Origin: Copranaerobaculum intestinale
GTDB taxonomy: Bacteria; Bacillota_I; Bacilli_A; Erysipelotrichales; Erysipelotrichaceae
Reading direction: 5' to 3'
Length of the DNA stretch: 32,000 nt
Assembly (NCBI RefSeq): GCF_009831105.1
Contig: NZ_WUUQ01000004.1
Location: 59,701 to 91,700 of the forward strand
Part shown: one piece after another, positions 3,173-24,724 of the stretch
Layout of the letters: each line of letters opens with the position of its first letter
How positions within the stretch are numbered: the stretch's first letter is position 1
Program-made: the position numbers and the translations under genes
Notes under the pieces: generated by a model
Told to the model about the DNA's origin: nothing
Seen by the model: the letters and a program-made list of their open reading frames with translations, nothing else
Databases searched by the model: none

Positions 3173-4543
3173 ATGGAAGCAATCATCCAAGATATGACAA
3201 AGGGATCACCGGCACGGCTGATTGTGCGCTTTGCGATACCGCTGATGCTGGGATCGGCCTGTCAACAGTTTTATACCATGGTAGATACGATGGTCGTGGG
3301 GCGAGGAGTTGGTGTGGAAGCATTGGCAGCAATTGGTGCTTCTGATTGGCTGAATTGGATGATCTTAGGTATCGTTCTAGGCTTTACACAAGGGTTTTCC
3401 ATTTTAATTTCTCACTGTTTTGGGGCGAACGATCAAAAACGATTACGCAAAGCGATTGCTATGTCATATATGTTGGCAGTATTCATGGCAGTTATTTTGA
3501 CCGGCTTGGCGCTTGTTTCCGCTCGGCCTATTCTGGTGTTGCTGAGAACTCCGGCAAATATCTTGGATTTATCCCTGCAATATTTATATATCGTATTTGC
3601 AGGTATTCTGGTCATTACCGCCTACAATACGTTTTCTTCGATTCTTCGGGCAATGGGCGACAGTAAAACACCGCTGTATGCGATGATCGTCGCGGCGGTT
3701 ATCAATATTGTTCTGGATATACTGTTTGTTATCGTATTTCATATGGGTGTGCCCGGTGCAGCGGTCGCTACTGTCATTGCGCAGGCATTTTCCAGCATAT
3801 TTTGTTTCTTTGCGATTCGTCGGCTGTCCATGATCCACCTGCATCGTGAGGATTTTCATTTGGATAAACAGGTGATTATCCGGTTGGTTTCCATGGGCTC
3901 CTTGACCGCCTTTCAAAACGTTGTGATTTCCGTAGGCGGCATGGTTGTGCAAAGTGTAGTAAATGGTTTTGGTTTTCTGTATGTTGCTGGTTTTACCGCA
4001 ACCAACAAACTGTACGGTCTTCTGGAGCTTGCAGCAACTTCACTTGGTTATGGCGTGGCAACCTATGTGGGACAGAATCTTGGCGCGCGTAAATTTAAAC
4101 GAATTAAGCAGGGGGTAAAAACTACCGGATGGATTGGAATTGCCATAGCTATTTTTCTGATGGCATTTTTGATACCCTTTGGACGGTATTTTCTGAATCT
4201 GTTTGTATCTGGCAATCCCCAGGATACTGCCAGGGTCTTGAATATTGCATATTCCTATCTATTTGTAATGTGCTGTTTGCTCTGGGTGTTATATATTCTG
4301 CATGTATACCGTTCTGCACTGCAGGGTATGGGAAATACCTTTTTTTCAATGCTGTCAGGAGTTGCAGAACTGGTTTTGCGAATAGGCGCAGCCCTGATAT
4401 TACCGCGGTATCTCGGCGCTAACGGCGTATACTTTGCAGAAGGCTCTGCTTGGATCGGAGCTGTGCTGATTCTGCTGTTTGCATATGCTCACAAAATCAA
4501 ATCCTTTCCTGATGAAACAGCGGTTTCAAGCTTGGAATCTTAA
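3173..4543 (+). CDS. MATE family efflux transporter
   Basis: 456 aa, about 12 TM segments, N-terminal ARLIVRFAIPLMLGSACQQFYTMVDTMVVGR typical of MATE/NorM-like pumps. SD AGGAGGGG 5 nt upstream. Confidence 0.9.
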   Translation: MEAIIQDMTKGSPARLIVRFAIPLMLGSACQQFYTMVDTMVVGRGVGVEALAAIGASDWLNWMILGIVLGFTQGFSILISHCFGANDQKRLRKAIAMSYMLAVFMAVILTGLALVSARPILVLLRTPANILDLSLQYLYIVFAGILVITAYNTFSSILRAMGDSKTPLYAMIVAAVINIVLDILFVIVFHMGVPGAAVATVIAQAFSSIFCFFAIRRLSMIHLHREDFHLDKQVIIRLVSMGSLTAFQNVVISVGGMVVQSVVNGFGFLYVAGFTATNKLYGLLELAATSLGYGVATYVGQNLGARKFKRIKQGVKTTGWIGIAIAIFLMAFLIPFGRYFLNLFVSGNPQDTARVLNIAYSYLFVMCCLLWVLYILHVYRSALQGMGNTFFSMLSGVAELVLRIGAALILPRYLGANGVYFAEGSAWIGAVLILLFAYAHKIKSFPDETAVSSLES

Positions 4544-10486: not shown

Positions 10487-10592
10487 AAGAAAAAGAAAAG
10501 CTGCCGGGGGGGGGCAGTTTTTCTTTCATTTAAGGGGATAGAAAAGTATGAAAAAATTTAAGGGGATAGGGTTAGCAGATCTCTCTGCCTGG
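10487..10592 (-). ncRNA. Candidate C-rich (anti-SD) small RNA, copy 1
   Basis: On the minus strand, in order:
- TATAGT -10-like box (10602-10597)
- 5' hairpin GCAGA-GAGA-UCUGC (10588-10575)
- two unpaired CUAUCCCCUUAAA motifs (CCCC = complement of 10562-10565 and 10534-10537)
- terminator CUGCC-C7-GGCAG followed by CUUUUCUUUUUCUUUU
The strand is inferred and no expression data exist. Confidence 0.4.
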
Positions 10593-10652
10593 TAATACTA
10601 TACGAAAATAATGCAGTCATAGTATGTCATGATTTTGGATAATTGTGTGAAA
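10491..10652. repeat. Direct repeat unit, copy 1 (terminator hairpin + 2x TTTAAGGGGATAG + hairpin + conserved tail)
   Basis: Copy 2 lies 474 bp downstream. The 125-nt core (10528-10652 vs 10999-11123) differs at 6 positions by hand count. Confidence 0.9.
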
Positions 10653-10960
10653 AAGATTATTTAGAAAGAAAAATACGAATGTTTGCGGAAGCAAGCGAAA
10701 ATGATGTAATTTTTTTGTACCACTTTATATAGGTAAGATTGATTGTTTCAGTCTATTTGCTGGAATCTCCAGCAGGCAAGCAGATTGATCATAAGGCTTG
10801 TAATTTCAATCAGCAGCTGAGTGCGGATAAAAATTTCTATATGATCTCAAAGAGGAACATCTGCATCTTTTTATAATAAAGGATGATTGGTTGAAAAATA
10901 TTACAGAGGAGTATCATCCGTAAACGTAAGGTCAATGCTTGATTCATTATTTAATGCCTC

Positions 10961-11063
10961 ATTCAAAAGAAAAGCTGCCTGTTAGCAGCCTTTCTTCAAT
11001 TTAAGGGGATAGAAAAGTATGAAAAAATTTAAGGGGATAGGATCGGCAGATCTCTCTGCCTGG
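10961..11063 (-). ncRNA. Candidate C-rich (anti-SD) small RNA, copy 2
   Basis: Same layout as copy 1:
- -10-like box at 11073-11068
- hairpin GGCAGA/UCUGCC (11060-11045)
- CCCC motifs complementary to 11033-11036 and 11005-11008
- terminator 10994-10969 followed by CUUUUCUUUUG. Confidence 0.4.
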
Positions 11064-11123
11064 TAATACTATACGAAAATAATACAGTCAGAGTATGTCA
11101 TGAATTTGGATAATTGTGTGAAA
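10965..11123. repeat. Direct repeat unit, copy 2
   Basis: See copy 1. The terminator-like hairpin keeps the GCTGC/GCAGC stem but has a different loop (CTGTTA vs G7). Confidence 0.9.
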
Positions 11124-11545
11124 GTAACAACACTTTTTTTTGTTATCCAGAATTCAGGCTTATTTTCATTTTATATGCTGAAAATAGCGTTTATGATTTT
11201 GAAACTTTATCATGAACGTTATATGGCTTTTTGTATCGAACTTAAAGAAATAGTAATTGTTATCAGTTTGCGTGTATAGATTTTATAGGTGATCAAATCC
11301 AATCATAAACTTTCCGATATTTGAAAAGCGGCAGAAATGCTTATCCGAATGTATCATGATTCTTTTATATTCAGAGAAACGGTATTTTTTTAATTAAAAT
11401 TGCCAGATACATTTGTAAAATAGATAGGCAGAATTACGATATAATTATGGTTTTTAAACGTATTGGATGCCAAAAATTACCATATCTATTTCTTACATGT
11501 ATAGTGTAAGATTCAAAGGTATAATCAGTCATAGAGGTGATAAAC

Positions 11546-11782
11546 ATGAATGAGCTATACACATTTAAAGATTTTCTGGAGAATCATGTATTTGGTTTTA
11601 AAGCAATGCGATATGAGGCTGATATTATGTATAAGGCAGTATGCTTTCATAAATATGGATATGCTTATAAGCGATATTGTGAAAATCATCAAAAGGTAGG
11701 AGATTATGAAATGTTGCAATATGATGTAAAGGATTATGAGAAACGGATTGCTGATGCGAAATATGCCGGTCGTATATCTTAA
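11546..11782 (+). CDS. Hypothetical small protein (78 aa, Tyr/Lys-rich), no recognisable family
   Basis: ATG 11546 is 5 nt after SD AGAGGTGA, with TATAAT at 11520-11525. The track ORF begins at an upstream GTG. No motif recognised. Confidence 0.5.
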   Translation: MNELYTFKDFLENHVFGFKAMRYEADIMYKAVCFHKYGYAYKRYCENHQKVGDYEMLQYDVKDYEKRIADAKYAGRIS

Positions 11783-12088: not shown

Positions 12089-12577
12089 TTATTGATGATC
12101 AAAACTTATAACAAATTTTTGATCTTGATTTCGGACTACGCATTCACCATAACGGGTTTTTCCTAGAGAATAGGTGCCTTTTCCATTCGGGTAGGCACTC
12201 ATAAGATTCTGATAGACATCAAAATCTTCCCTCAGATCCTGAAACACATCCAACGTCGAAAAAGTGATTTTCCCAAAAGCTTCTGCTGCTTTTCTTTGTT
12301 CTCCGTTTTTGAGAAACTCCAGTGCTTTTATTTGCTGTTCCTTATTATAGATAAATTTTAAAGCGGAACCATCTTCATGTTTATAAGAAAGAATATATTC
12401 CTTTTCTTTTTCTTTAATAGAAGTTAACTCGAAATTGAGCTTTTTTGATTTTTCCGTAAGGATATCATTCATTACTGCAATATCTTTTGTATCATCAAAA
12501 TCAGATATATTCAGCGATGAAGAACAACCAAAAAGCAGCACTATCATAACAAGTAACGATGCAAGCTTTATTTTCAT
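12089..12577 (-). CDS. Hypothetical lipoprotein (162 aa)
   Basis: Signal peptide MKIKLASLLVMIVLLFGC with lipobox LFGC. SD AAGGAGGGAG 4 nt upstream. No recognisable domain. Confidence 0.7.
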   Translation of the reverse strand: MKIKLASLLVMIVLLFGCSSSLNISDFDDTKDIAVMNDILTEKSKKLNFELTSIKEKEKEYILSYKHEDGSALKFIYNKEQQIKALEFLKNGEQRKAAEAFGKITFSTLDVFQDLREDFDVYQNLMSAYPNGKGTYSLGKTRYGECVVRNQDQKFVISFDHQ

Positions 12578-13030: not shown

Positions 13031-13180
13031 CAAGCAAAAAGCCCTTTAAATTAAAGGGCTTTTTCAATGTAAAAGAGCCCAAGGGGAGGGGCTCTTTTAC
13101 AAAAATTATTATTAAGGGGATAGAATGTATAGAGATAATTAGGGGAAATTATTTCTATCAGCAAAGGCACTTCCTTTGCT
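13031..13180 (-). ncRNA. Candidate C-rich (anti-SD) small RNA, diverged copy 3 with tandem terminators
   Basis: On the minus strand, in order:
- TAGAGTATAAG box (13193-13183)
- hairpin GCAAAGG-AAGUG-CCUUUGC (13179-13161)
- UUUCCCCUAAUU, possibly in the loop of an AUAAUU/AAUUAU stem
- CUAUCCCCUUAAU
- terminator 13098-13071 with loop CUCCCCUU
- a second, perfect terminator at 13064-13036. Confidence 0.35.
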
Positions 13181-13279
13181 TGCTTATACTCTACCAAAGT
13201 CAATACGCAAAAATATATGCAAAAAATGGGATTTTATGTTATTTTCGTTTAATATATTAAACTTTTTATTTGGTATATA

Positions 13280-13351: not shown

Positions 13352-13366
13352 CAGGGAGGGATGCAC

Positions 13367-13900
13367 ATGGATATTGGGCCAAAGATCAAACAACTGCGAA
13401 TAAAAAACGCATTAACACTCGAAGAGTTGGCGAGTCGCTGTGAGCTGACAAAAGGATTTCTTAGTCAGGTAGAGCGTGATCTGACCAGTCCCAGTGTGTC
13501 TACGCTAAATGATATTCTGGAAGCACTTGGAACATCCTTATCAGATTTTTTTCAAGAGACAAAAGAAGAAAAGCTAGTATTCACTGATGAAGATTTCTTT
13601 ATTGATGAACGAGCTGGAACCACGGTGCACTGGATCGTTCCCAATGCTCAGAAAAATGAGATGGAACCAATACTTTTGGATATTGATCCAGAGGGAGAAT
13701 CGCAAATTATCGATCCACACGACGGTGAAGAATTCGGATATGTTTTGCAGGGCAGAATTTATTTGGTTTACAACGAAGAAGAGCTGCTGGTAAAAAAGGG
13801 TGAAACCTTTTATATTTCCGGCAAGCACACCCATTTTATAAAAAATGCGGGTAAGAGCACAGCTACGGTGCTTTGGATTACGACCCCGCCGACATTTTAA
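13367..13900 (+). CDS. XRE-family HTH transcriptional regulator with C-terminal cupin domain (PuuR-like architecture)
   Basis: HTH LTLEELASRCELTKGFLSQVERD. Cupin GEEFGYVLQGRIYL...GETFYISGKHTHFIKN. ATG 13367 is 7 nt after SD AGGGAGGG; the track start 13361 is too close to the SD. Confidence 0.85.
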   Translation: MDIGPKIKQLRIKNALTLEELASRCELTKGFLSQVERDLTSPSVSTLNDILEALGTSLSDFFQETKEEKLVFTDEDFFIDERAGTTVHWIVPNAQKNEMEPILLDIDPEGESQIIDPHDGEEFGYVLQGRIYLVYNEEELLVKKGETFYISGKHTHFIKNAGKSTATVLWITTPPTF

Positions 13901-13912
13901 GGAGGAATGACA

Positions 13913-15490
13913 ATGAAAAAGTTAATTCAGTTCAAAAATATTGTAAAAGAATTTGACGGTCAGCTGGTATTAAAGGGAATCAACTTGGATATCAATGAAA
14001 ATGAGTTCGTTACATTGCTGGGGCCGAGCGGATGTGGGAAAACGACCTTACTGCGTATTCTGGGAGGGTTTTTAAATCAAACTGAAGGACATGTCGTATT
14101 CGATGGTGAGGTAATCGATAATGTTCCTCCTTATAAACGTGAATTGAATACTGTCTTTCAGAAATATGCATTGTTTCCGCATATGAGTGTATATGATAAT
14201 ATTGCATTCGGCTTAAAAATTAAAAAAGTCAGTAAGGACGTCATCGAACAGAAGGTGATGAAGATGCTGAAGTTGGTGAATTTAGAAGGCTATGAAGACC
14301 GCAGTGTAACGCTTTTATCGGGTGGTCAGCAGCAGCGTGTCGCAATTGCCCGCGCTTTGGTAAATGAACCGATGGTTCTGTTACTGGATGAGCCTTTGGG
14401 AGCATTGGATTTGAAGCTTCGCAAAGAGATGCAGCATGAGCTGAAAAAAATTCAGCAGGAAGTCGGCATTACCTTTATTTATGTAACACATGATCAGGAA
14501 GAAGCATTGACGATGTCTGATAAAATTGTAGTTATGAAAGATGGTGAGATACAGCAGATCGGTACTCCGATTGAGATTTACAATGAGCCGGAGAACGAGT
14601 ATGTTGCACGTTTCATCGGAGACTCCAATATCATACCGGGCATCATGCTGGAAGACTATAAAGTAATGTTTGATGATTTGAAATTCGATTGTGTCGATTT
14701 TGGATTTAAAGAGAAGGAGCCTGTGGATATTGTAATACGGCCGGAGGATCTGGATATAGTGGAAGAAACTCAGGGCAAGCTTACTGGCACGGTGAAGTCT
14801 GTTCTGTTCAAGGGGGTTCACTATGAAATTATCGTGGAGACGGTACCCGGAACTGAAGTGACCGTTCGTATGAATGTATCAAAGGAGCATCCGGCTGCGA
14901 GCAGCGATGCTTCGGAGAAAATTTCCGCAAATGATTTCTATGTCGATCTGGAGGATGTTGCAGAATTAAACGATGCAGAAGTAATTGCCCGTGCAGATGC
15001 GCAGGCATGGAACGTAGAAGATGATGAATTGCTTTCGATTGCTAAGATTGAATATGATGTGAAAGAGGAGATCGGTACCTATCCGGTAACCTTTACATCC
15101 GCAGGCGGAGTCAGCGTCACTACGAAAATCTTTGTGGTGCAGCAGACTTATGTTGAAAATAAAAAAGCTAATGAAGCAATAAGCGCCTTCAATATCTTTA
15201 AGACGGTTGATGATATCAAAGAAAGTACTGCATTGGATACTGACCTGAAAACATGGGCAAATGCGCAGGGTTGGAAGCTCGATGATGAAGATGCCGTCGT
15301 GGAAATTACCGATGTGGATTATGATTTTGATCCTGATCATATTGAAGAAGGTGTCTATACCGTTCGCTTTTCTACCCAGGGACGTGAATTAAAAGTTCAT
15401 ACAACGGATGTCAGTGAGGAGGGAGCAGAAGTCGGGCTGCTCTTTCAGCCGGAAGATATTCATGTTATGAACAAGATGGGGTCATACTGA
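13913..15490 (+). CDS. potA: Spermidine/putrescine ABC transporter ATPase PotA with a ~180-aa insertion in the C-terminal regulatory domain
   Basis: Walker A GPSGCGKT, signature LSGGQQQR, Walker [13 protein letters not shown]-loop THD. 525 aa, whereas my recollection of ordinary PotA is about 370-385 aa. ATG 13913 is 7 nt after AAGGAGG. Confidence 0.9.
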
Positions 15491-16341
15491 TGAAGCAGTT
15501 TCGCCGTCTTACATATCCTTATATTATATGGATATCGGCTATGATCGTTATTCCAATGCTGTTGATCGTGCTGTATGCCTTTACAAAGCAGGGTAACGAT
15601 GTAGCGACTTTGCAGTTCACATTTGATAATTTCACGAAGTTTTTTACCGACCCTGACTTCTTGAAAATTCTGTTTCTGTCTCTGCGTATTGCATTGATTA
15701 CAACAATCTTATGTGTATTGATCGGTTATCCGGTAGCCTATGCGATTGCGCAGGCATCACCGGCTCGTCAAAACTTCTATATTCTTTTAATTACGCTGCC
15801 GATGTGGATCAATATGTTGGTTCGCACCTATGCATGGATTGGTATTTTAGCCGATAATGGTGTCATCAATAATATTTTGCAGTTTTTTGGAATGTCACCG
15901 ACCAAGCTGCTGTATACGGATTTTGCGGTAACATTGGGCATGGTATATAATTTTGTACCATTTATGATTTTACAGATTCACTCCTCCTTAACCAAAATGG
16001 ACCGCAGCCTCTTAGATGCTGCAAATGATTTGGGTGCCAATAAAGTACAAGCATTTAGAAGGGTTACTTTTCCATTATCTCTGCCGGGTGTCATATCCGG
16101 TATCACATTGGTGTTCCTGCCGGCAGTATCCAGCTTTGTCATTCCGAAGCTGCTCGGCGGAGCCGGTAAGCCGCTGATTGGAAATATCATCGAAACACAA
16201 TTTATTACCGTAGGCGAATGGAACTTTGGCAGTGCGATTTCCATGATCATGGCAGTTATTATCATGGCCTCAATGTACGTAACCAGAAAACTGGATAAAG
16301 ACAATGATGAAGAAAAAGGAAAGCGGGGAAGAGCACTATGA
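15490..16341 (+). CDS. potB: Spermidine/putrescine ABC transporter permease PotB
   Basis: 283 aa, 6 TM segments, EAA-type loop DAANDLGANKVQAFRRVTFPLSLPG. Its ATG overlaps the potA TGA. Confidence 0.9.
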   Translation: MKQFRRLTYPYIIWISAMIVIPMLLIVLYAFTKQGNDVATLQFTFDNFTKFFTDPDFLKILFLSLRIALITTILCVLIGYPVAYAIAQASPARQNFYILLITLPMWINMLVRTYAWIGILADNGVINNILQFFGMSPTKLLYTDFAVTLGMVYNFVPFMILQIHSSLTKMDRSLLDAANDLGANKVQAFRRVTFPLSLPGVISGITLVFLPAVSSFVIPKLLGGAGKPLIGNIIETQFITVGEWNFGSAISMIMAVIIMASMYVTRKLDKDNDEEKGKRGRAL

Positions 16342-18233
16342 AGAAATTCCATGTGTCCCGTAAACTGATTATCGGAGGTATTCTTCTATTCTTCTATCTG
16401 CCGATTTTATATTTAGTGATTTTTTCTTTTAACGATTCCCGCTCATTGACCAATTTTCAGGGATTCTCGCTGCACTGGTATGAGCAGATGTTTTCTGATC
16501 AGAATATGCTGGAGGCAATCTATTATACACTGGTGATCGCGGTGATCGCTACGATAGTGTCAACGATTGTAGGAACGATTACGGCAATCGGTCTGTCAAA
16601 ATCACGCCGCATTGTTCGTGAGGTAGTTACTCAGATCAATGATCTGCCGATCATGAATCCGGAAATTGTCACAGCGATCGGATTTATGCTGTTTTATGTA
16701 TCGCTGCATATCGAAAAGGGCTTTGCGACATTATTGTTATCACATATCGCATTCTGTATTCCATATGTAATCTTGAGTGTGATGCCAAAACTGCGTTCTC
16801 TTGATCCCAATATAGCAGAAGCAGCGATGGATTTAGGCGCGACACCCTTTCAATCGCTTCGGAAGGTAATCGTACCGCAGATCATGCCGGGTATTATCTC
16901 CGGTGCGCTTATTGCTTTCACCATGTCCTTTGATGATTTCATTATTTCATATTTTGTTACCGGAAATGGTGTAAAAAATATTTCAACATTGGTTTGGACG
17001 ATGTCTAAGCGAATCAACCCAAGCATCAATGCACTGTCTACGATTATTGTGGTAATTATTACGATTGCGCTGATATTGGTAAATATTCTGCCGATTATCA
17101 AATCCAATGTGGAAAAGAAAAACCCGGCGATGGGCAGACGTGTAATCGCTTTGATCATGGTACCGATCATCGCGGCAGCCGGATTCGGACTCTTTTGGCT
17201 GAAAGGCAGTTCCGGAAACGCCAGTGCGTCCGCTGCTATTCAAAAATACGGAAGTGATGTACTGAAAGTGTATAACTGGGGTGAGTATATTGACCCATCT
17301 GTAAACAAGGCGTTTGAAAAGAAATTTGGGGTAAAGGTTATTTATGATACGTTTGACTCCAATGAACTAATGTATACGAAACTACAGGGTGGGGAAGCCT
17401 TCGATGTTCTGGTGCCAAGTGACTATATGATTGAACGCTTGCTGAACGAAAACCTGCTTCAGCCGCTTGATAAAAAAATGATTCCTAATTTGGATCAAAT
17501 TTATGAAGGGGTACGCAAGCTGCCTTATGATCCGACGAATAAGTACAGTGTTCCTTATTTCTGGGGGACTGTCGGTATTGTCTATAACAAAAAGAATGTC
17601 AGTAAGGCTGACCTCGATAAAGAAGGCTTTAATATTCTGCTGGATCAGAATTATAAAGGAAAGCTGTATATCTATGATTCAGAACGTGATTCCTTCATGA
17701 TGGCGCTGAAGGCACTTGGTTATTCTATGAATACAACCGATCCAAAAGAATTAAAAGCAGCGTATGACTGGCTGGTGAAGCTGAAAACTACGATGGATCC
17801 GGAGATTGTTACTGATGAAGTAATTGATGCGATGGTCAATGGCAATAAAGATATGGCAGTCGTATACAGCGGTGATGCGGCTTATATACTGTCACAGAAT
17901 CCGGATATGGATTACTATATGCCGGCAGAAGGTACTAACTTCTGGAGCGATGCGATGGTAATTCCGAAGAATGCGCCTAATCCAAAACTGGCTAATGAAT
18001 ATATCAATTTTATCTCAGACTACGAACAGAGCTACAAGAATTCGATCTTTGTCGGCTATGCTTCCAGTAATGCAGATGTCTTGCATGACCTTAGCAGTGA
18101 AGGCGGCGAATTTGCCGGTAATCATGCATATAAACCTCGTATTCATTATAAGAATGATGAAGTATTCCAATATAATGACAAAACAAAGAAAATCATGTCT
18201 GATTACTGGACGAAAGTCAGAATCGCAAAATAA
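16338..18233 (+). CDS. potCD: Fused PotC permease / PotD substrate-binding protein
   Basis: Residues 1-260 are a PotC-like permease (EAAMDLGATPFQSLRKVIVPQIMPG). Residues 265-288 are an extra TM segment. Residues 300-631 are a PotD-like periplasmic binding domain (VYNWGEYIDP, VPYFWGT). One continuous ORF; its ATGA overlaps the potB stop. Confidence 0.9.
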   Translation: MKKFHVSRKLIIGGILLFFYLPILYLVIFSFNDSRSLTNFQGFSLHWYEQMFSDQNMLEAIYYTLVIAVIATIVSTIVGTITAIGLSKSRRIVREVVTQINDLPIMNPEIVTAIGFMLFYVSLHIEKGFATLLLSHIAFCIPYVILSVMPKLRSLDPNIAEAAMDLGATPFQSLRKVIVPQIMPGIISGALIAFTMSFDDFIISYFVTGNGVKNISTLVWTMSKRINPSINALSTIIVVIITIALILVNILPIIKSNVEKKNPAMGRRVIALIMVPIIAAAGFGLFWLKGSSGNASASAAIQKYGSDVLKVYNWGEYIDPSVNKAFEKKFGVKVIYDTFDSNELMYTKLQGGEAFDVLVPSDYMIERLLNENLLQPLDKKMIPNLDQIYEGVRKLPYDPTNKYSVPYFWGTVGIVYNKKNVSKADLDKEGFNILLDQNYKGKLYIYDSERDSFMMALKALGYSMNTTDPKELKAAYDWLVKLKTTMDPEIVTDEVIDAMVNGNKDMAVVYSGDAAYILSQNPDMDYYMPAEGTNFWSDAMVIPKNAPNPKLANEYINFISDYEQSYKNSIFVGYASSNADVLHDLSSEGGEFAGNHAYKPRIHYKNDEVFQYNDKTKKIMSDYWTKVRIAK

Positions 18234-18424: not shown

Positions 18425-18499
18425 GGTTCCGTAGCCAAGTGGTAAGGCAATAGACTGCAACTCTGTGATTCATCGGTTCAAATCCGATCGGAACCTCCA
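18425..18499 (+). tRNA. tRNA-Cys (anticodon GCA), CCA encoded
   Basis: Hand-folded cloverleaf:
- acceptor GGTTCCG/CGGAACC
- anticodon stem ATAGA/TCTGT with loop CTGCAAC
- T-arm ATCGG-TTCAAAT-CCGAT
- discriminator T followed by CCA. Confidence 0.9.
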
Positions 18500-18503
18500 T
18501 TTT

Positions 18504-18591
18504 GGGATCGTGGCGAAATAGGCAGACGCAACGGACTTAAAATCCGTTGGGAGTTAATCCCGTGGGGGTTCAAGTCCCCCCGTTCCCACCA
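18504..18591 (+). tRNA. tRNA-Leu (anticodon UAA), class II with long variable arm, CCA encoded
   Basis: Hand-folded cloverleaf:
- acceptor GGGATCG/CGTTCCC (one T-T mismatch)
- anticodon stem ACGGA/TCCGT with loop CTTAAAA
- variable arm GGGA-GTTAA-TCCC
- T-arm GGGGG-TTCAAGT-CCCCC. Confidence 0.85.
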
Positions 18592-23503: not shown

Positions 23504-24724
23504 ATGAGTATAACATCACGTATGAATCCACGTTTTCAAAAAATTCAGGGAGGATTGTTCACGGAAGTTCAGAAGGCGGATGTGAGCGGTTCTTATATGG
23601 ATCTTGCCAAACAGGGCATCGATTTAATGGGATGGGCCGATCCCTTTACCCCTGATTATGTTTTACCTCAAAAGGTGAAAAAAGCATTTGTCGATGCGGT
23701 GAATGATCCTCTGGGAGCACATTATACCGCCCCGATCGGCAACGATGAATTAAAACAGATCATCGCTGAGAAAATTAAACGTCAAAATCATATTGAGGTG
23801 GATTGGCGCCGCAATTTACTGATAACTCCGGGCTCTGACTCAGGTCTGTATTATGCGATGCTCCCATTTATTGAATCGGGAGATGAGGTTATGGTTCCGG
23901 TGCCTTGTTACCCCAACAACCTGCAAAATATTCAAACTATGGGTGCAGAACCTGTCTATATCCCACTGCGAGCAGAAAATGGGTATCAATTTGATATAGC
24001 TGAATTTGAAAAAAGAATTAGTGACAGGACAAAAATGGTTGTTCTGACCCATCCTAATAATCCGACCACGACCGTGTTCACCAGAGCATCACTTGAGGCG
24101 CTTTGTGCCTTTATTGTAAAACATGATTTGATTTTGGTATGCGATCAGGCATTTGAAGATTATATTTATGATAATCGCGAGTATGTCACCCCGGCGGCTC
24201 TGCCAGGAATGTGGGAGCGCACGGTTACGGTTTTTTCGGTTTCCAAGGGCATGGGCTTTTCAGGTATCCGGGTAGGTTATCTCATGAGCTGTGATGCAGT
24301 TATGGATGTATTGTATGGGGCTGCGGTTTCGGTTATTGGGGCAACTCACACAATTTCACAGCTTGCGGTAATGGAAGCTTTTCGAGATATGTCCTTCATG
24401 AAGGAATTTGAAAAGGCATTCGAAGAGCGGCGTCATATGGCCTATGCACTGTTGAACAGCGTTCCGCATGTTTCAATGCAGCTGCCGGAATCAGGATTCT
24501 TATGCTGGGTGGATGTCCATGAGCTGGGCAGCGGTCAAGAGATTTACGAGTATCTTCTGAAGGAGGCAAAAGTAGCGGTTAACGCCGGTACTTCCTATGG
24601 ACCGGGCGGTGAAGGTCATATTCGCATTGTGTTAGGAGTATATCGTGATTCAACAAAAGTGTATGATGCGCTTCAGCGGATTGCGAAGGCTTTGTCACAT
24701 TATCCAAACGGCTGTGCAGATTAG
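23504..24724 (+). CDS. Pyridoxal-phosphate-dependent aminotransferase, class I/II
   Basis: 406 aa. HPNNPTT and SVSKGMGFSGIRVGY (PLP-lysine motif). SD AAAGGAGGA. Confidence 0.85.
   Translation: MSITSRMNPRFQKIQGGLFTEVQKADVSGSYMDLAKQGIDLMGWADPFTPDYVLPQKVKKAFVDAVNDPLGAHYTAPIGNDELKQIIAEKIKRQNHIEVDWRRNLLITPGSDSGLYYAMLPFIESGDEVMVPVPCYPNNLQNIQTMGAEPVYIPLRAENGYQFDIAEFEKRISDRTKMVVLTHPNNPTTTVFTRASLEALCAFIVKHDLILVCDQAFEDYIYDNREYVTPAALPGMWERTVTVFSVSKGMGFSGIRVGYLMSCDAVMDVLYGAAVSVIGATHTISQLAVMEAFRDMSFMKEFEKAFEERRHMAYALLNSVPHVSMQLPESGFLCWVDVHELGSGQEIYEYLLKEAKVAVNAGTSYGPGGEGHIRIVLGVYRDSTKVYDALQRIAKALSHYPNGCAD

What the first reader, a model, noticed from the sequence alone, without database searches (positions are those of the whole stretch)
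13031..13195. Third, diverged copy keeps the structure but not the sequence (compensatory hairpin, C-rich loop, double terminator)
**Seen in the sequence**
- This copy lies 2 kb away, on the other side of the lipoprotein gene, and repeats the same order of elements.
- Plus strand, in order:
  - two terminator hairpins (13036-13064, perfect, and 13071-13098)
  - TTAAGGGGATAG
  - 26 nt later, TTAGGGGAAA
  - hairpin GCAAAGG-cactt-CCTTTGC
  - a TATACTCTAC box aligning with TAATACTATAC of copies 1 and 2
- The 5' hairpin has a completely different stem sequence from copies 1 and 2 but the same position and similar size.
- On the minus strand, one CCCC can sit in the loop of an AUAAUU/AAUUAU stem, and the first terminator loop reads CUCCCCUU.
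- There is no plus-strand gene for 1.2 kb upstream that these terminators could serve.

**Inference**
- Conserved motifs and structure with diverged stems suggest selection at the RNA level, rather than a recent duplication or a coding element.
Basis: partly seen in the sequence, partly recalled or inferred. Interest (0 to 1): 0.7.

Follow-up and report, generated by a model that had tools for sequence, protein, structure and literature searches.

The report
New C-rich small RNA family
The flagged stretch is very likely the gene for a ~115-nt small regulatory RNA on the minus strand, the conserved full-length member of a three-copy family found across gut Erysipelotrichaceae, which resembles known C-rich RNAs that block ribosome-binding sites but is in no RNA database.

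Summary
Window 13067-13182 (minus strand) has the layout of a gene. In order it has an upstream box, a -10 hexamer, a 5' hairpin, a second hairpin with UCCCCU in its loop, a single-stranded CUAUCCCCUUAA, and a terminator with CUCCCCUU in its loop.

I recovered about 36 distinct relatives from Erysipelotrichaceae genomes and gut metagenomes (Merdibacter, [Eubacterium] hominis, Bulleidia). A covariance model built from five of them, without the window, finds copy 3 at 77 bits (E 8e-13). Across the family, 29 of 30 base pairs show compensatory changes (0/500 shuffles). A conserved direct-repeat box starts 62±2 nt upstream of the model's first helix column, at or near the 5' hairpin's base, in 33 of 34 relatives.

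Copy 3 is the ancestral, syntenic form, not a diverged copy. It lies divergent from an XRE-cupin/pot operon in four other contigs. Copies 1 and 2 are derived siblings that lost hairpin 2.

No Rfam family reaches its threshold. RsaE/RoxS is the recurrent weak match, at 16-25 bits against a threshold of 79.

The most likely mechanism is a trans-acting anti-Shine-Dalgarno sRNA in the style of RsaE or LhrC. Strand, expression and targets are inferred, not shown.

The parts
13067..13182 (-). Copy 3: predicted ~115-nt small RNA (5' hairpin, C-loop hairpin, single-stranded C-rich seed, terminator)
   Evidence: Model R1 was built from five other-genome sequences only. It scores this stretch 77.4 bits, E 7.7e-13. 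R2 scores it 89.9 bits. Fold -36.8 kcal/mol, z -7.8.
13227..13242 (-). Copy 3 upstream box ATAACATAAAATCCCA. This is a degenerate form of the family box ATCACATAWTTTCACA, a direct repeat TCACA-N5-TCACA. It is a presumed activator site at about -60 to -45.
   Evidence: 12/16 match, starting 63 nt upstream of the model's first helix column. The same box starts at 62±2 nt in 33 of 34 relatives. Random 113-nt pieces of the window seldom reach 12/16.
13188..13193 (-). Copy 3 putative -10 hexamer TAGAGT (aligns with TATAGT/TATACT/TATATT of relatives), 8 nt before the GCAAAGG stem
   Evidence: Anchored upstream sequences. Not strand-specific on its own, because -10-like hexamers occur on both strands.
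13161..13179 (-). Hairpin 1 (GCAAAGG-AAGUG-CCUUUGC) at the predicted 5' end
   Evidence: Helix 1 has 7 of 8 pairs with double-sided changes across the family. Stem sequences differ between lineages: GCAAGG, GGCAAAGA, AGACAAAG, GCAGA, CAGACAG.
13129..13158 (-). Hairpin 2 (AUAGAAAUAAUU / AAUUAUCUCUAU) with loop UCCCCU at 13141-13146, the first C-rich region
   Evidence: Helix 2 has 11 of 11 pairs with double-sided changes. The loop CCCCU is kept in all relatives. This conservation is partly imposed by the search pattern.
13112..13123 (-). Single-stranded seed CUAUCCCCUUAA, the second C-rich region
   Evidence: Unpaired in the MFE and consensus structures. AUCCCCUUA is also kept in copies found only by the model (L009 2581-2694, L016 5504-5618).
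13069..13100 (-). Terminator 1 with loop CUCCCCUU (13081-13088), the third C-rich region
   Evidence: Helix 3 is 98.7% paired, with 11 of 11 pairs showing double changes. C-rich terminator loops are shared by the Merdibacter, hominis and L009/L016 lineages, but not by the L028-L140 lineages.
13036..13064 (.). Second, perfect palindromic terminator hairpin (AAAAAGCCCUUUAA-U-UUAAAGGGCUUUUU). Probably a back-up or insulating terminator ahead of the lipoprotein gene. Not part of the conserved family.
   Evidence: (I16). No equivalent in orthologous loci, where a second sRNA copy or a convergent gene follows instead.
10493..10592 (-). Copy 1: sibling sRNA without hairpin 2. It has hairpin 1 (10574-10589), two single-stranded CUAUCCCCUUAA (10558-10569 and 10530-10541), and a terminator with a C9 loop. 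The -10 TATAGT is at 10597-10602 and the box TTCACACAATTATCCA at 10636-10651.
   Evidence: R2 40.6 bits, E 8.1e-7; not in the model's training set. Box at 62 nt. Fold.
10966..11063 (-). Copy 2: 93% identical to copy 1 over 139 nt, 471 nt away. The terminator loop has no C run. The -10 is at 11068-11073 and the box at 11107-11122.
   Evidence: R2 38.4 bits, E 2.3e-6. Repeat D1. Box at 62 nt.

Best explanation
Window 13067-13182 (minus strand) is an independently transcribed small RNA gene of about 115 nt. It belongs to a family restricted, as far as sampled, to Erysipelotrichaceae.

Proposed mechanism:
- Transcription starts 6-8 nt downstream of a -10 hexamer and depends on a factor that binds a direct-repeat box (TCACA-N5-TCACA) at about -60 to -45.
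- The RNA begins with a stable 5' hairpin, which probably protects it from 5' exonuclease.
- It displays up to three G-free, C-rich motifs in accessible positions: the hairpin-2 loop UCCCCU, the linker CUAUCCCCUUAA and the terminator loop CUCCCCUU.
- It ends at an intrinsic terminator.
- By analogy with RsaE/RoxS and LhrC, the C-rich motifs pair with G-rich Shine-Dalgarno regions (…AAGGGGAU…) of target mRNAs and block translation initiation.

Copies 1 and 2 are derived siblings with the same promoter, 5' hairpin and seed. In them the hairpin-2 stem is lost, so both C-motifs are single-stranded.

Shown computationally: family membership, conserved structure, promoter-box spacing, synteny, and absence of coding.
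Inferred: strand, expression, trans action, targets and regulator.
For: - Relatives with the same element order were found in Merdibacter spp., [Eubacterium] hominis, Bulleidia and Erysipelotrichaceae MAGs, and in gut metagenomes.
- Model R1, built without the window, finds copy 3 at 77.4 bits, E 7.7e-13. Model R2 finds copies 1 and 2, which were never in a training set, at 40.6 and 38.4 bits. All three are on the minus strand, and nothing else in 32 kb is found beyond terminator-level noise.
- Covariation: 91.5% of cells are paired, and 29 of 30 pairs have compensatory changes. The score is 0.650 against 0.175 shuffled (0/500) and at most 0.152 slid. RNAalifold predicts the same three helices, with 25 of 25 pairs compensated.
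- The promoter-side box starts at a fixed 62±2 nt in 33 of 34 relatives. It travels with the RNA through three different gene contexts.
- On the terminator side the next gene is convergent in most loci, so the element is not a leader.
- No + strand gene lies upstream of copy 3's terminators.
- No conserved ORF exists, and the RNA is 10-19% G.
- A pair at the base of hairpin 1 is G·U in 17 sequences and A-U in 14, which is compatible only with the minus strand. Three recent substitutions between near-identical relatives all create G·U on that strand.
- The recurrent best sub-threshold Rfam match on this strand is RsaE, with hairpin 2, AUCCCCUU and the terminator aligned to the RsaE stem-loop, C-rich linker and terminator. 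A sequence profile of the family matches the RsaE consensus better than 500 of 500 shuffles.
- Published behaviour of such RNAs: PMC4409812 and PMC4132741.
Against: - There is no expression data of any kind.
- Thermodynamic strand tests do not favour the minus strand. Consensus energy is -25.2 (sense) against -26.5 (antisense). The hairpin 1+2 region folds better on the antisense strand in 24 of 36 sequences, with 8 better on the sense strand and 4 ties.
- In the model-fitted alignment, A·C outnumbers G·U in helices 1 and 2 by 23 to 12. This includes copy 3's own A·C in hairpin 2.
- -10-like hexamers occur on both strands.
- Copy 3's and copies 1/2's boxes match the consensus at only 11-12 of 16 positions.
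- Invariance of the two C-motifs across relatives is partly an artefact of having found them with patterns that contain those motifs.
- Target prediction within the window is weak. The best hit, the MatE gene at 3173, gives -17.5 kcal/mol, and start regions are G-rich anyway.
- No Rfam family reaches even half of its gathering score.
Confidence: 0.75

Rival explanations
1. It is a minus-strand small RNA, but its C-rich motifs act by binding or titrating a protein (for example a KH-domain or other C-binding RNA-binding protein) or another RNA as a sponge, rather than by pairing with Shine-Dalgarno sequences.
For: - Up to three repeated, accessible, near-identical C-rich sites per molecule, and two to three gene copies per genome, is the layout of titrating RNAs as well as of anti-SD RNAs.
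- The extreme conservation of a 12-13-nt motif is longer than an anti-SD seed needs.
- No convincing target was found in the window.
Against: - Every characterised Firmicute sRNA with UCCC/CCCC motifs in loops acts by mRNA pairing (PMC4132741, PMC4409812).
- The motif's complement, AAGGGGAU, looks like a Shine-Dalgarno sequence.
- Motif invariance is inflated by how the relatives were found.
Confidence: 0.1
2. It is a cis-acting leader or attenuator on the minus strand that controls the gene downstream of its terminator. In the window that gene is the lipoprotein gene 12089-12577.
For: - Promoter, structured RNA and terminator, followed by a same-strand gene, is the layout of an attenuator.
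- In the L028/L054/L130/L039/L030 lineages the element is followed within about 20-25 nt by a co-oriented gene for a P-loop kinase-like protein.
Against: - In Merdibacter (L003, L013, L020, L021, L024), in L009 and for copy 1, the next gene on the terminator side is convergent.
- In L014, L064, L009 and L016 the next feature is another sRNA copy.
- In the window the lipoprotein gene is about 490 nt away, behind a second terminator.
- Downstream genes are unrelated between lineages.
- No alternative anti-terminator pairing is evident in the folds.
Confidence: 0.05
3. The functional strand is the + strand or the DNA itself. On this reading the G-rich repeats TTAAGGGGATAG are protein-binding sites or parts of a + strand RNA (for example GGA-type protein-binding motifs), placed between a terminator and the promoter of the neighbouring XRE-cupin/pot operon.
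For: - Thermodynamics slightly favours the + strand.
- A·C outnumbers G·U in helices 1 and 2.
- -10-like hexamers are also present on the + strand.
- Copy-3-type elements always sit next to the XRE-cupin/pot operon.
Against: - On the + strand the unit would begin with a terminator and would have neither a promoter upstream nor a terminator downstream.
- The flank beyond the terminator is not conserved, whereas 62 nt of fixed-spacing promoter architecture lies on the other side.
- The same unit, with its box, occurs where the box side abuts the 3' end of a co-oriented gene (L020, L054). A + strand promoter would be pointless there.
- Compensatory changes in two non-terminator helices argue for RNA rather than duplex DNA sites.
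- The small + strand ORFs that follow the motif are not conserved (4-22 codons, absent in some lineages; read directly from the sequences).
Confidence: 0.07
4. It is a repeated selfish or structural intergenic element (REP- or MITE-like), with no gene of its own.
For: Several copies lie within 2.7 kb, and there are hairpins.
Against: - Only 1-3 copies are seen per locus, at syntenic positions across genera.
- There are no terminal inverted repeats or target duplications.
- Only three copies occur in 32 kb.
- The unit has a directional promoter-RNA-terminator layout.
Confidence: 0.02

Closest known systems
RsaE / RoxS (Rfam RF01820), the C-rich sRNA of Staphylococcus and Bacillus
   Same: - About 100-115 nt and G-poor.
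- CCCC motifs sit in a hairpin loop, in the following single-stranded linker, and (in B. subtilis and here) in the terminator loop. The motif is duplicated within the molecule (PMC4409812).
- AUCCCCUU is shared with the RsaE consensus, as printed.
- It is the recurrent best sub-threshold Rfam match on the right strand for copies 1-3 and for L014b.
- The family's sequence profile beats 500 of 500 shuffles of the RsaE consensus.
- The promoter carries a conserved upstream element at about -60. RoxS has a ResD site near -65.
   Different: - Scores are 16-25 bits against a gathering score of 79.
- There is an extra 5' hairpin.
- The duplicated motif is CCCCUAAU / AUCCCCUUAA, not CCCCUUUGUU.
- No Rex inverted repeat lies at the start site.
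- The upstream box is a direct repeat of TCACA.
- There are two to three gene copies rather than one.
- The host family is anaerobic gut Erysipelotrichaceae.
LhrC1-5 of Listeria monocytogenes (Rfam LhrC family)
   Same: - It is a multicopy, partly tandem sRNA.
- Three redundant (C)UCCC sites sit in a hairpin loop, in the single-stranded stretch and in the terminator loop.
- The RNA is G-poor.
- Its promoter depends on an element upstream of -53 that is recognised through a response regulator (PMC4132741).
- The three-site layout is the same as in copy 3.
   Different: - No Rfam match to LhrC at E up to 10 or up to 1.
- No sequence similarity was noted.
- The family here has an extra 5' hairpin.
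- The regulator here is unknown.
csRNAs (Cia-dependent small RNAs, Rfam RF02379) of Streptococcus
   Same: - Several sibling sRNAs of about 90-150 nt per genome, with an anti-SD sequence in a hairpin loop and in the linker.
- Control is through a direct-repeat response-regulator box.
- It is the best single sub-threshold Rfam score for copy 3 (31.2 bits, E 0.011).
- By eye, the linker of copies 1/2 (UUAAAUUUUUUCAUAC) resembles the csRNA consensus (CCUAAAcUUUUUUCAUAAUAAU).
   Different: - The score is below the gathering score of 57.
- The match is not reproduced in L014 or L017 or for copy 1.
- A sequence profile shows no similarity.
- No TTTAAG-N5-TTTAAG box lies at the promoters.
- The seed is CCCC, not CCUCC.
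FsrA (Rfam RF02273) and the wider class of UCCC-motif sRNAs of low-GC Gram-positives (RsaA/C/D/G/H, RNAIII, SprD)
   Same: C-rich accessible motifs, including a C-rich terminator loop. There are weak hits for copy 1 and for L014a (19.5 and 19.1 bits).
   Different: The scores are far below the gathering score of 80. No shared architecture beyond the motif class.

Membership tests
RsaE/RoxS (RF01820) | Match to the Rfam covariance model at or above its gathering score (79 bits) | tested here: not met
   23.7 bits (copy 3), 19.7 (copy 2), 16.4 (copy 1) and 25.4 (L014b).
RsaE/RoxS (RF01820) | Several C-rich regions in unpaired positions (hairpin loop, linker, terminator loop) | tested here: met
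   UCCCCU is in the hairpin-2 loop, CUAUCCCCUUAA is unpaired, and CUCCCCUU is in the terminator loop. This holds in the MFE and consensus structures.
RsaE/RoxS (RF01820) | Duplicated CCCCUUUGUU motif (PMC4409812) | tested here: not met
   The motifs here are UUCCCCUAAU and AUCCCCUUAA. Only AUCCCCUU is shared.
RsaE/RoxS (RF01820) | Rex operator (TTGTGAA-W4-TTCACAA) at the transcription start, and a ResD site near -65 (PMC5419742, PMC4409812, PMC2883068) | tested here: not met
   No Rex-like inverted repeat lies near any of the three copies. The conserved box is a direct repeat, ATCACATAWTTTCACA, at about -60 to -45. Its right half equals a Rex half-site but the left half does not. Similarity to a ResD site could not be tested, because the ResD sequence is not in the text I could read.
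RsaE/RoxS (RF01820) | Represses translation by pairing with G-rich Shine-Dalgarno regions | not testable with these tools
   Only duplex predictions within 32 kb were possible.
LhrC | Match to the Rfam LhrC model | tested here: not met
   No LhrC hit at E up to 10 or up to 1 in any search of the three copies.
LhrC | [quoted passage not shown] | tested here: met
   Copy 3 and the Merdibacter, hominis and L009/L016 relatives have all three. Copy 2 and the L028-L140 lineages lack the terminator-loop site.
LhrC | Multicopy, with tandem siblings | tested here: met
   There are three copies in 2.7 kb here. Pairs occur in L009, L016, L014, L035, L051 and L064.
LhrC | LisRK-dependent promoter | not testable with these tools
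   A conserved box lies at a comparable position, but the regulator is unknown.
csRNA (RF02379) | Match to the Rfam model at or above 57 bits | tested here: not met
   31.2 bits for copy 3 only. There is no hit for copy 1, L014 or L017.
csRNA (RF02379) | CiaR direct repeat TTTAAG-N5-TTTAAG at the promoter (from my own knowledge of the csRNA literature) | tested here: not met
   No such site lies near 10600-10660, 11070-11130 or 13190-13250, allowing up to 2 mismatches.
Generic class: trans-acting C-rich (UCCC-motif) sRNA of Firmicutes | A free-standing gene with its own promoter and intrinsic terminator, non-coding, with accessible C-rich motifs and conserved structure | tested here: met
   Expression itself was not tested.

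The most novel reading that the evidence does not exclude
The family is a true, very diverged orthologue of RsaE/RoxS. RsaE/RoxS has been described as the only trans-acting sRNA besides 6S RNA known to be conserved between S. aureus and B. subtilis. On this reading the RNA has persisted in Erysipelotrichia, has been rewired to a different regulator that binds a direct repeat, and has expanded into sibling copies. Its 12-nt seed, invariant in the sampled relatives, would then define a conserved regulon in anaerobic gut bacteria.
Probability: 0.2. Interest if true: 0.65.

Novelty: new member of a known kind. Interest (0 to 1): 0.45.

Why it matters
- Post-transcriptional regulation is essentially unstudied in Erysipelotrichaceae, which are common gut commensals.
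- This finding gives a concrete family backed by covariation. It has a defined promoter box, a predicted seed and up to three sibling copies per locus. Two working covariance models can be used to annotate it.
- It makes two questions testable. Which regulator binds the TCACA-N5-TCACA box? Which mRNAs with AAGGGGAU-type ribosome-binding sites are controlled?
- If homology to RsaE/RoxS were established, it would extend that RNA beyond Bacillales.
- The mechanism class itself, a C-rich anti-Shine-Dalgarno sRNA, is well known. A specialist would find the result useful rather than surprising.

Tried and rejected
- Rfam: at gathering thresholds it finds only two tRNAs in the window. Permissive scans of the copies and of relatives gave only sub-threshold hits.
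- Sequence-only alignment: MAFFT alignments across lineages misplace hairpins 1 and 2, and RNAalifold on them recovers only the terminator. I therefore built a model from one well-aligned lineage and re-aligned the rest.
- Strand tests were all inconclusive: MFE and z-score per sequence, G·U against A·C counts, and consensus energy of the alignment against its reverse complement. A -10 scan on both strands was also uninformative.
- Coding was rejected. The 50-codon ORF 13051-13203 starts upstream of the predicted start site. Several relatives have no ORF of 15 or more codons. Frames relative to the motif differ between relatives. The + strand mini-ORFs after the motif are not conserved.
- Leader/attenuator, mobile repeat and + strand or DNA-site readings were rejected on gene context.
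- Organism look-up by exact protein failed.
- Literature search for the motif sequences found only unrelated E. coli papers. A search for Erysipelotrichaceae sRNAs found nothing relevant.
- Looking for further genomic sites of the promoter box in the window gave chance-level matches only.
- Target prediction within the window and loci gave leads only. These are the MatE gene at 3173, the aminotransferase gene at 23504, and a 70-aa ORF with SD GGGAGGGGGAU next to the sRNAs in L035.
Full report
**What is in the sequence.**
- A perfect 14+14 hairpin lies at 13036-13064 (I16).
- A second terminator lies at 13069-13100. Its loop reads CUCCCCUU on the minus strand.
- TTAAGGGGATAG is at 13112-13123 and TTAGGGGAAA at 13139-13148.
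- The hairpin GCAAAGG-CACTT-CCTTTGC is at 13161-13179 and TATACTCTAC at 13185-13194.
- The 12-mer occurs five times exactly, always on the + strand. Two occurrences are in each of copies 1 and 2 and one is in copy 3. With up to two mismatches there are 8 matches against 2.5 expected, and 0 of 100 shuffles reach 8.
- Copies 1 and 2 (10514-10652 and 10985-11123) are 93% identical over 139 nt and lie 471 nt apart. Only that block is repeated, not the spacers.
- The minus strand of copy 3 folds into three hairpins. UCCCCU sits in the second loop, the 12-mer complement CUAUCCCCUUAA is unpaired, and CUCCCCUU sits in the terminator loop (-36.8 kcal/mol, z = -7.8).

**Relatives elsewhere.** A pattern scan of one genome per species returned 12 Erysipelotrichaceae loci with the same order of elements, plus chance hits. 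The 12 comprise eight Merdibacter loci, [Eubacterium] hominis, Bulleidia and two unnamed MAGs. Taxonomy was checked.
- A metagenome scan added further lineages, mostly from human-gut assemblies.
- That scan also returned many hits to an unrelated repeated coding element of oral Lachnospiraceae. I removed those.
- In each lineage the individual MFE fold gives the same three hairpins, although the stems differ in sequence.
- Caveat: both scans required the C-rich motifs, so the invariance of those motifs among these hits is partly imposed by the search.

**Structure test.** Sequence-only alignments across lineages slip in hairpins 1 and 2, and only the terminator is recovered from them.
- I built a covariance model (R1) from five sequences of one lineage, without the window.
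- R1 finds copy 3 at 13067-13182 (minus strand) with 77.4 bits, E 7.7e-13. It finds all other lineages at 38-60 bits.
- R1 also finds second copies in L009 and L016 that no pattern had detected.
- The resulting alignment holds 39 sequences, of which 36 are distinct. On it, 91.5% of cells are paired and 29 of 30 pairs have changes on both sides. The covariation score is 0.650, against 0.175±0.012 in shuffles (0/500) and 0.06-0.15 when partners are slid by 1-3 columns.
- Hairpin 1 has 7 of 8 pairs with double changes. Hairpin 2 has 11 of 11.
- RNAalifold predicts the same three helices on its own, with all 25 predicted pairs compensated.
- The alignment is fitted to the model, which favours the structure. 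The slid control and the independent per-sequence folds argue that the signal is real.
- A second model from the diverse alignment (R2) scores copies 1 and 2, which were never used in training, at 40.6 and 38.4 bits (E about 1e-6). Both are on the minus strand, with hairpin 2 deleted. Nothing else in the 32 kb rises above terminator-level noise.
- R2 also picks up the Bulleidia-type, L123-type and L031/L091-type variants.

**Promoter side.** The sequences were anchored on the model's first helix column, which lies at or within a few nt of the base of hairpin 1. With that anchor, a 16-nt box with consensus ATCACATAWTTTCACA starts 62±2 nt upstream in 33 of 34 relatives. The box is a direct repeat, TCACA-N5-TCACA.
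- Matches are 12-16 of 16 outside the window. Copy 3 matches at 12 of 16 (13227-13242) and copies 1 and 2 at 11 of 16.
- Random 113-nt pieces of the window mostly reach 8-10 of 16.
- An A/T-rich hexamer (TATAGT, TATACT, TATATT; TAGAGT in copy 3) lies 6-8 nt before hairpin 1.
- The box is not a Rex operator, which is an inverted repeat (PMC2883068). It is not a CiaR-type repeat either.
- A direct repeat with 10-bp phasing at about -60 to -45 suggests a winged-helix response regulator. This is an inference from general knowledge, and the factor is unknown.

**Which strand.** This is the weakest link, and it is not settled by energetics.

*Tests that do not favour the minus strand:*
- The consensus energy is -25.2 on the sense strand and -26.5 on the antisense strand.
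- The hairpin 1+2 region folds better on the antisense strand in 24 of 36 sequences, with 8 better on the sense strand and 4 ties.
- A·C outnumbers G·U in helices 1 and 2 of the fitted alignment by 23 to 12. Many of these cells lie in internal loops.
- -10-like hexamers occur on both strands.

*Evidence for the minus strand:*
- A pair at the base of hairpin 1 is G·U in 17 sequences and A-U in 14.
- Three recent substitutions between near-identical relatives all create G·U on that strand.
- The layout points the same way. All conserved promoter architecture lies on one side and the terminator on the other. The flank beyond the terminator is not conserved.
- On the terminator side the next gene is convergent in most loci. 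On the box side the neighbour is sometimes the 3' end of a co-oriented gene.
- In the window no + strand gene precedes copy 3's terminators.
- A + strand RNA would begin with a terminator and would have neither a promoter nor an end.

**Context and history.** Copy-3-type genes are syntenic. In the window, L009, L014, L035 and L064 they lie divergent from an XRE-cupin regulator and a potA-like ATPase. The regulators are 69-75% identical in protein sequence in all four contigs. The ATPases are 81-87% identical in the three contigs where they were compared (L009, L014, L035).
- Other lineages sit in other, internally conserved contexts. One example is downstream of Bax1-I/CpXC genes.
- The box therefore belongs to the RNA, not to the pot operon.
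- Copy 3 is the ancestral full-length form. Copies 1 and 2 are window-lineage siblings in which the hairpin-2 stem is gone and both C-motifs are single-stranded.
- The second hairpin at 13036-13064 has no counterpart in relatives. It is probably an extra terminator that insulates the lipoprotein gene.

**Not coding, not a leader, not a repeat element.**
- Several relatives have no ORF of 15 or more codons. Start positions and frames relative to the motif differ between relatives. The RNA is 10-19% G and so has no Shine-Dalgarno sequence of its own.
- Downstream genes are unrelated or convergent.
- Copy number is 1-3 at syntenic sites.

**Comparison with known families.** No Rfam 15 family reaches its gathering score.
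- RsaE/RoxS: this is the recurrent sub-threshold match on the minus strand, at 23.7, 19.7, 16.4 and 25.4 bits against a threshold of 79. Hairpin 2, AUCCCCUU and the terminator align to the RsaE stem-loop, C-rich linker and terminator. A sequence profile of the family scores the RsaE consensus at 10.2 bits, above all 500 shuffles.
- csRNA: it gives the single best score for copy 3 (31.2 bits against 57). It is not reproduced for other members or by sequence profile.
- RoxS, functionally: it has four C-rich regions, a duplicated C-motif, SD-pairing action, a ResD site near -65 and a Rex site at the start (PMC4409812, PMC5419742).
- LhrC, functionally: it is multicopy with UCCC in loop A, in the linker and in the terminator loop. 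It needs a promoter element upstream of -53 that depends on LisR (PMC4132741). The three-site layout and the multicopy state match LhrC best. The sequence match is best to RsaE.
- Membership in any of these families fails the model test. The family therefore works like these RNAs without being a demonstrable member of any.

**Mechanism and confidence.** I put 0.75 on a free-standing minus-strand sRNA that acts through its C-rich motifs. Anti-Shine-Dalgarno pairing is the most likely mode.
- Within the window, the strongest predicted duplexes of the linker seed are with the start regions of the MatE gene at 3173 (GGAGGGGAUUAAAUG, -17.5 kcal/mol) and the aminotransferase gene at 23504 (-16.0). 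The background first percentile is -13.0.
- These are leads only, because start regions are G-rich in any case.
- Expression, ends, targets and regulator all need experiments.

**Verdict.** It is a new, uncatalogued family within a well-known kind of regulator.

Noticed in passing
window 10506-10514: The terminator loop of copy 1 is a run of nine C on the minus strand (G9 on +). Copy 2 has no such run (loop UAACAG). A homopolymer of this length could vary by slippage and change the number of C-rich sites.
   Followed up: no
window 11537-11782 (+); L035 3813-4022, L042, L045, L049, L014 2882-3049: An 81-aa ORF with no Pfam match lies between copy 2 and copy 3. It has weak homologues (24-31% identity, E 1e-6 to 1e-8) that sit between or beside the two sRNA paralogues in [Eubacterium] hominis-like contigs. 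In L035 its ribosome-binding site is GGGAGGGGGAU, which would be a possible target of the sRNA.
   Followed up: partly
window 13361-18233: The divergent operon is an XRE-HTH/cupin regulator followed by a polyamine-type ABC transporter with unusual fusions. One is a 527-aa ATPase (ABC_tran + TOBE_2 plus a long C-terminal extension). The other is a 631-aa protein that joins a permease domain to a solute-binding domain.
   Followed up: no
L009 2581-2694, L016 5504-5618: Second, more diverged sRNA copies lie about 70 nt downstream of the first (about 180 nt start to start). They were found only by the covariance model. Their seed is AAUCCCCUUAUA and the terminator loop is CUCCCCU. Their own box is at 62-63 nt.
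   Followed up: partly
L031 3789-3903, L041, L091 1729-1841, L093 648-759: A further gut-metagenome variant has three CCCC(C) motifs (…GCCCCCUAAAACC…UUCUAUCCCCUUAAAAAUAUUCAAUAAUGCCCCCUUAAAAAG…). It scores 29-37 bits with R2 but has a different 5' part.
   Followed up: no
L032 3605-3724 upstream region: This is the only homologue without the upstream box (best match 9/16). Instead it has a perfect TATAAT 7 nt before hairpin 1, which suggests a switch to constitutive expression.
   Followed up: no
L002, L005, L007, L025 and about 45 metagenome loci: An unrelated, highly repeated element of oral Lachnospiraceae (Catonella, Lachnoanaerobaculum, [Eubacterium] yurii) contains …CCCCTTAAGACTGTATATTCTATCCCCTTAAT…, and it dominated the pattern scans. 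It looks like part of a multi-copy mobile element.
   Followed up: no
L027 and L117; L001 796-840: L027 and L117 carry head-to-tail 27-nt repeats (…AAAATGTATTGATACATCTATCCCCTT…). A Methanoplasma contig carries four tandem TTAAGGGGATAG units next to a tRNA-like sequence. Both are chance sharers of the motif.
   Followed up: no
window 18425-18588: Two adjacent tRNA genes (66 and 57 bits) lie directly after the pot operon terminator.
   Followed up: no
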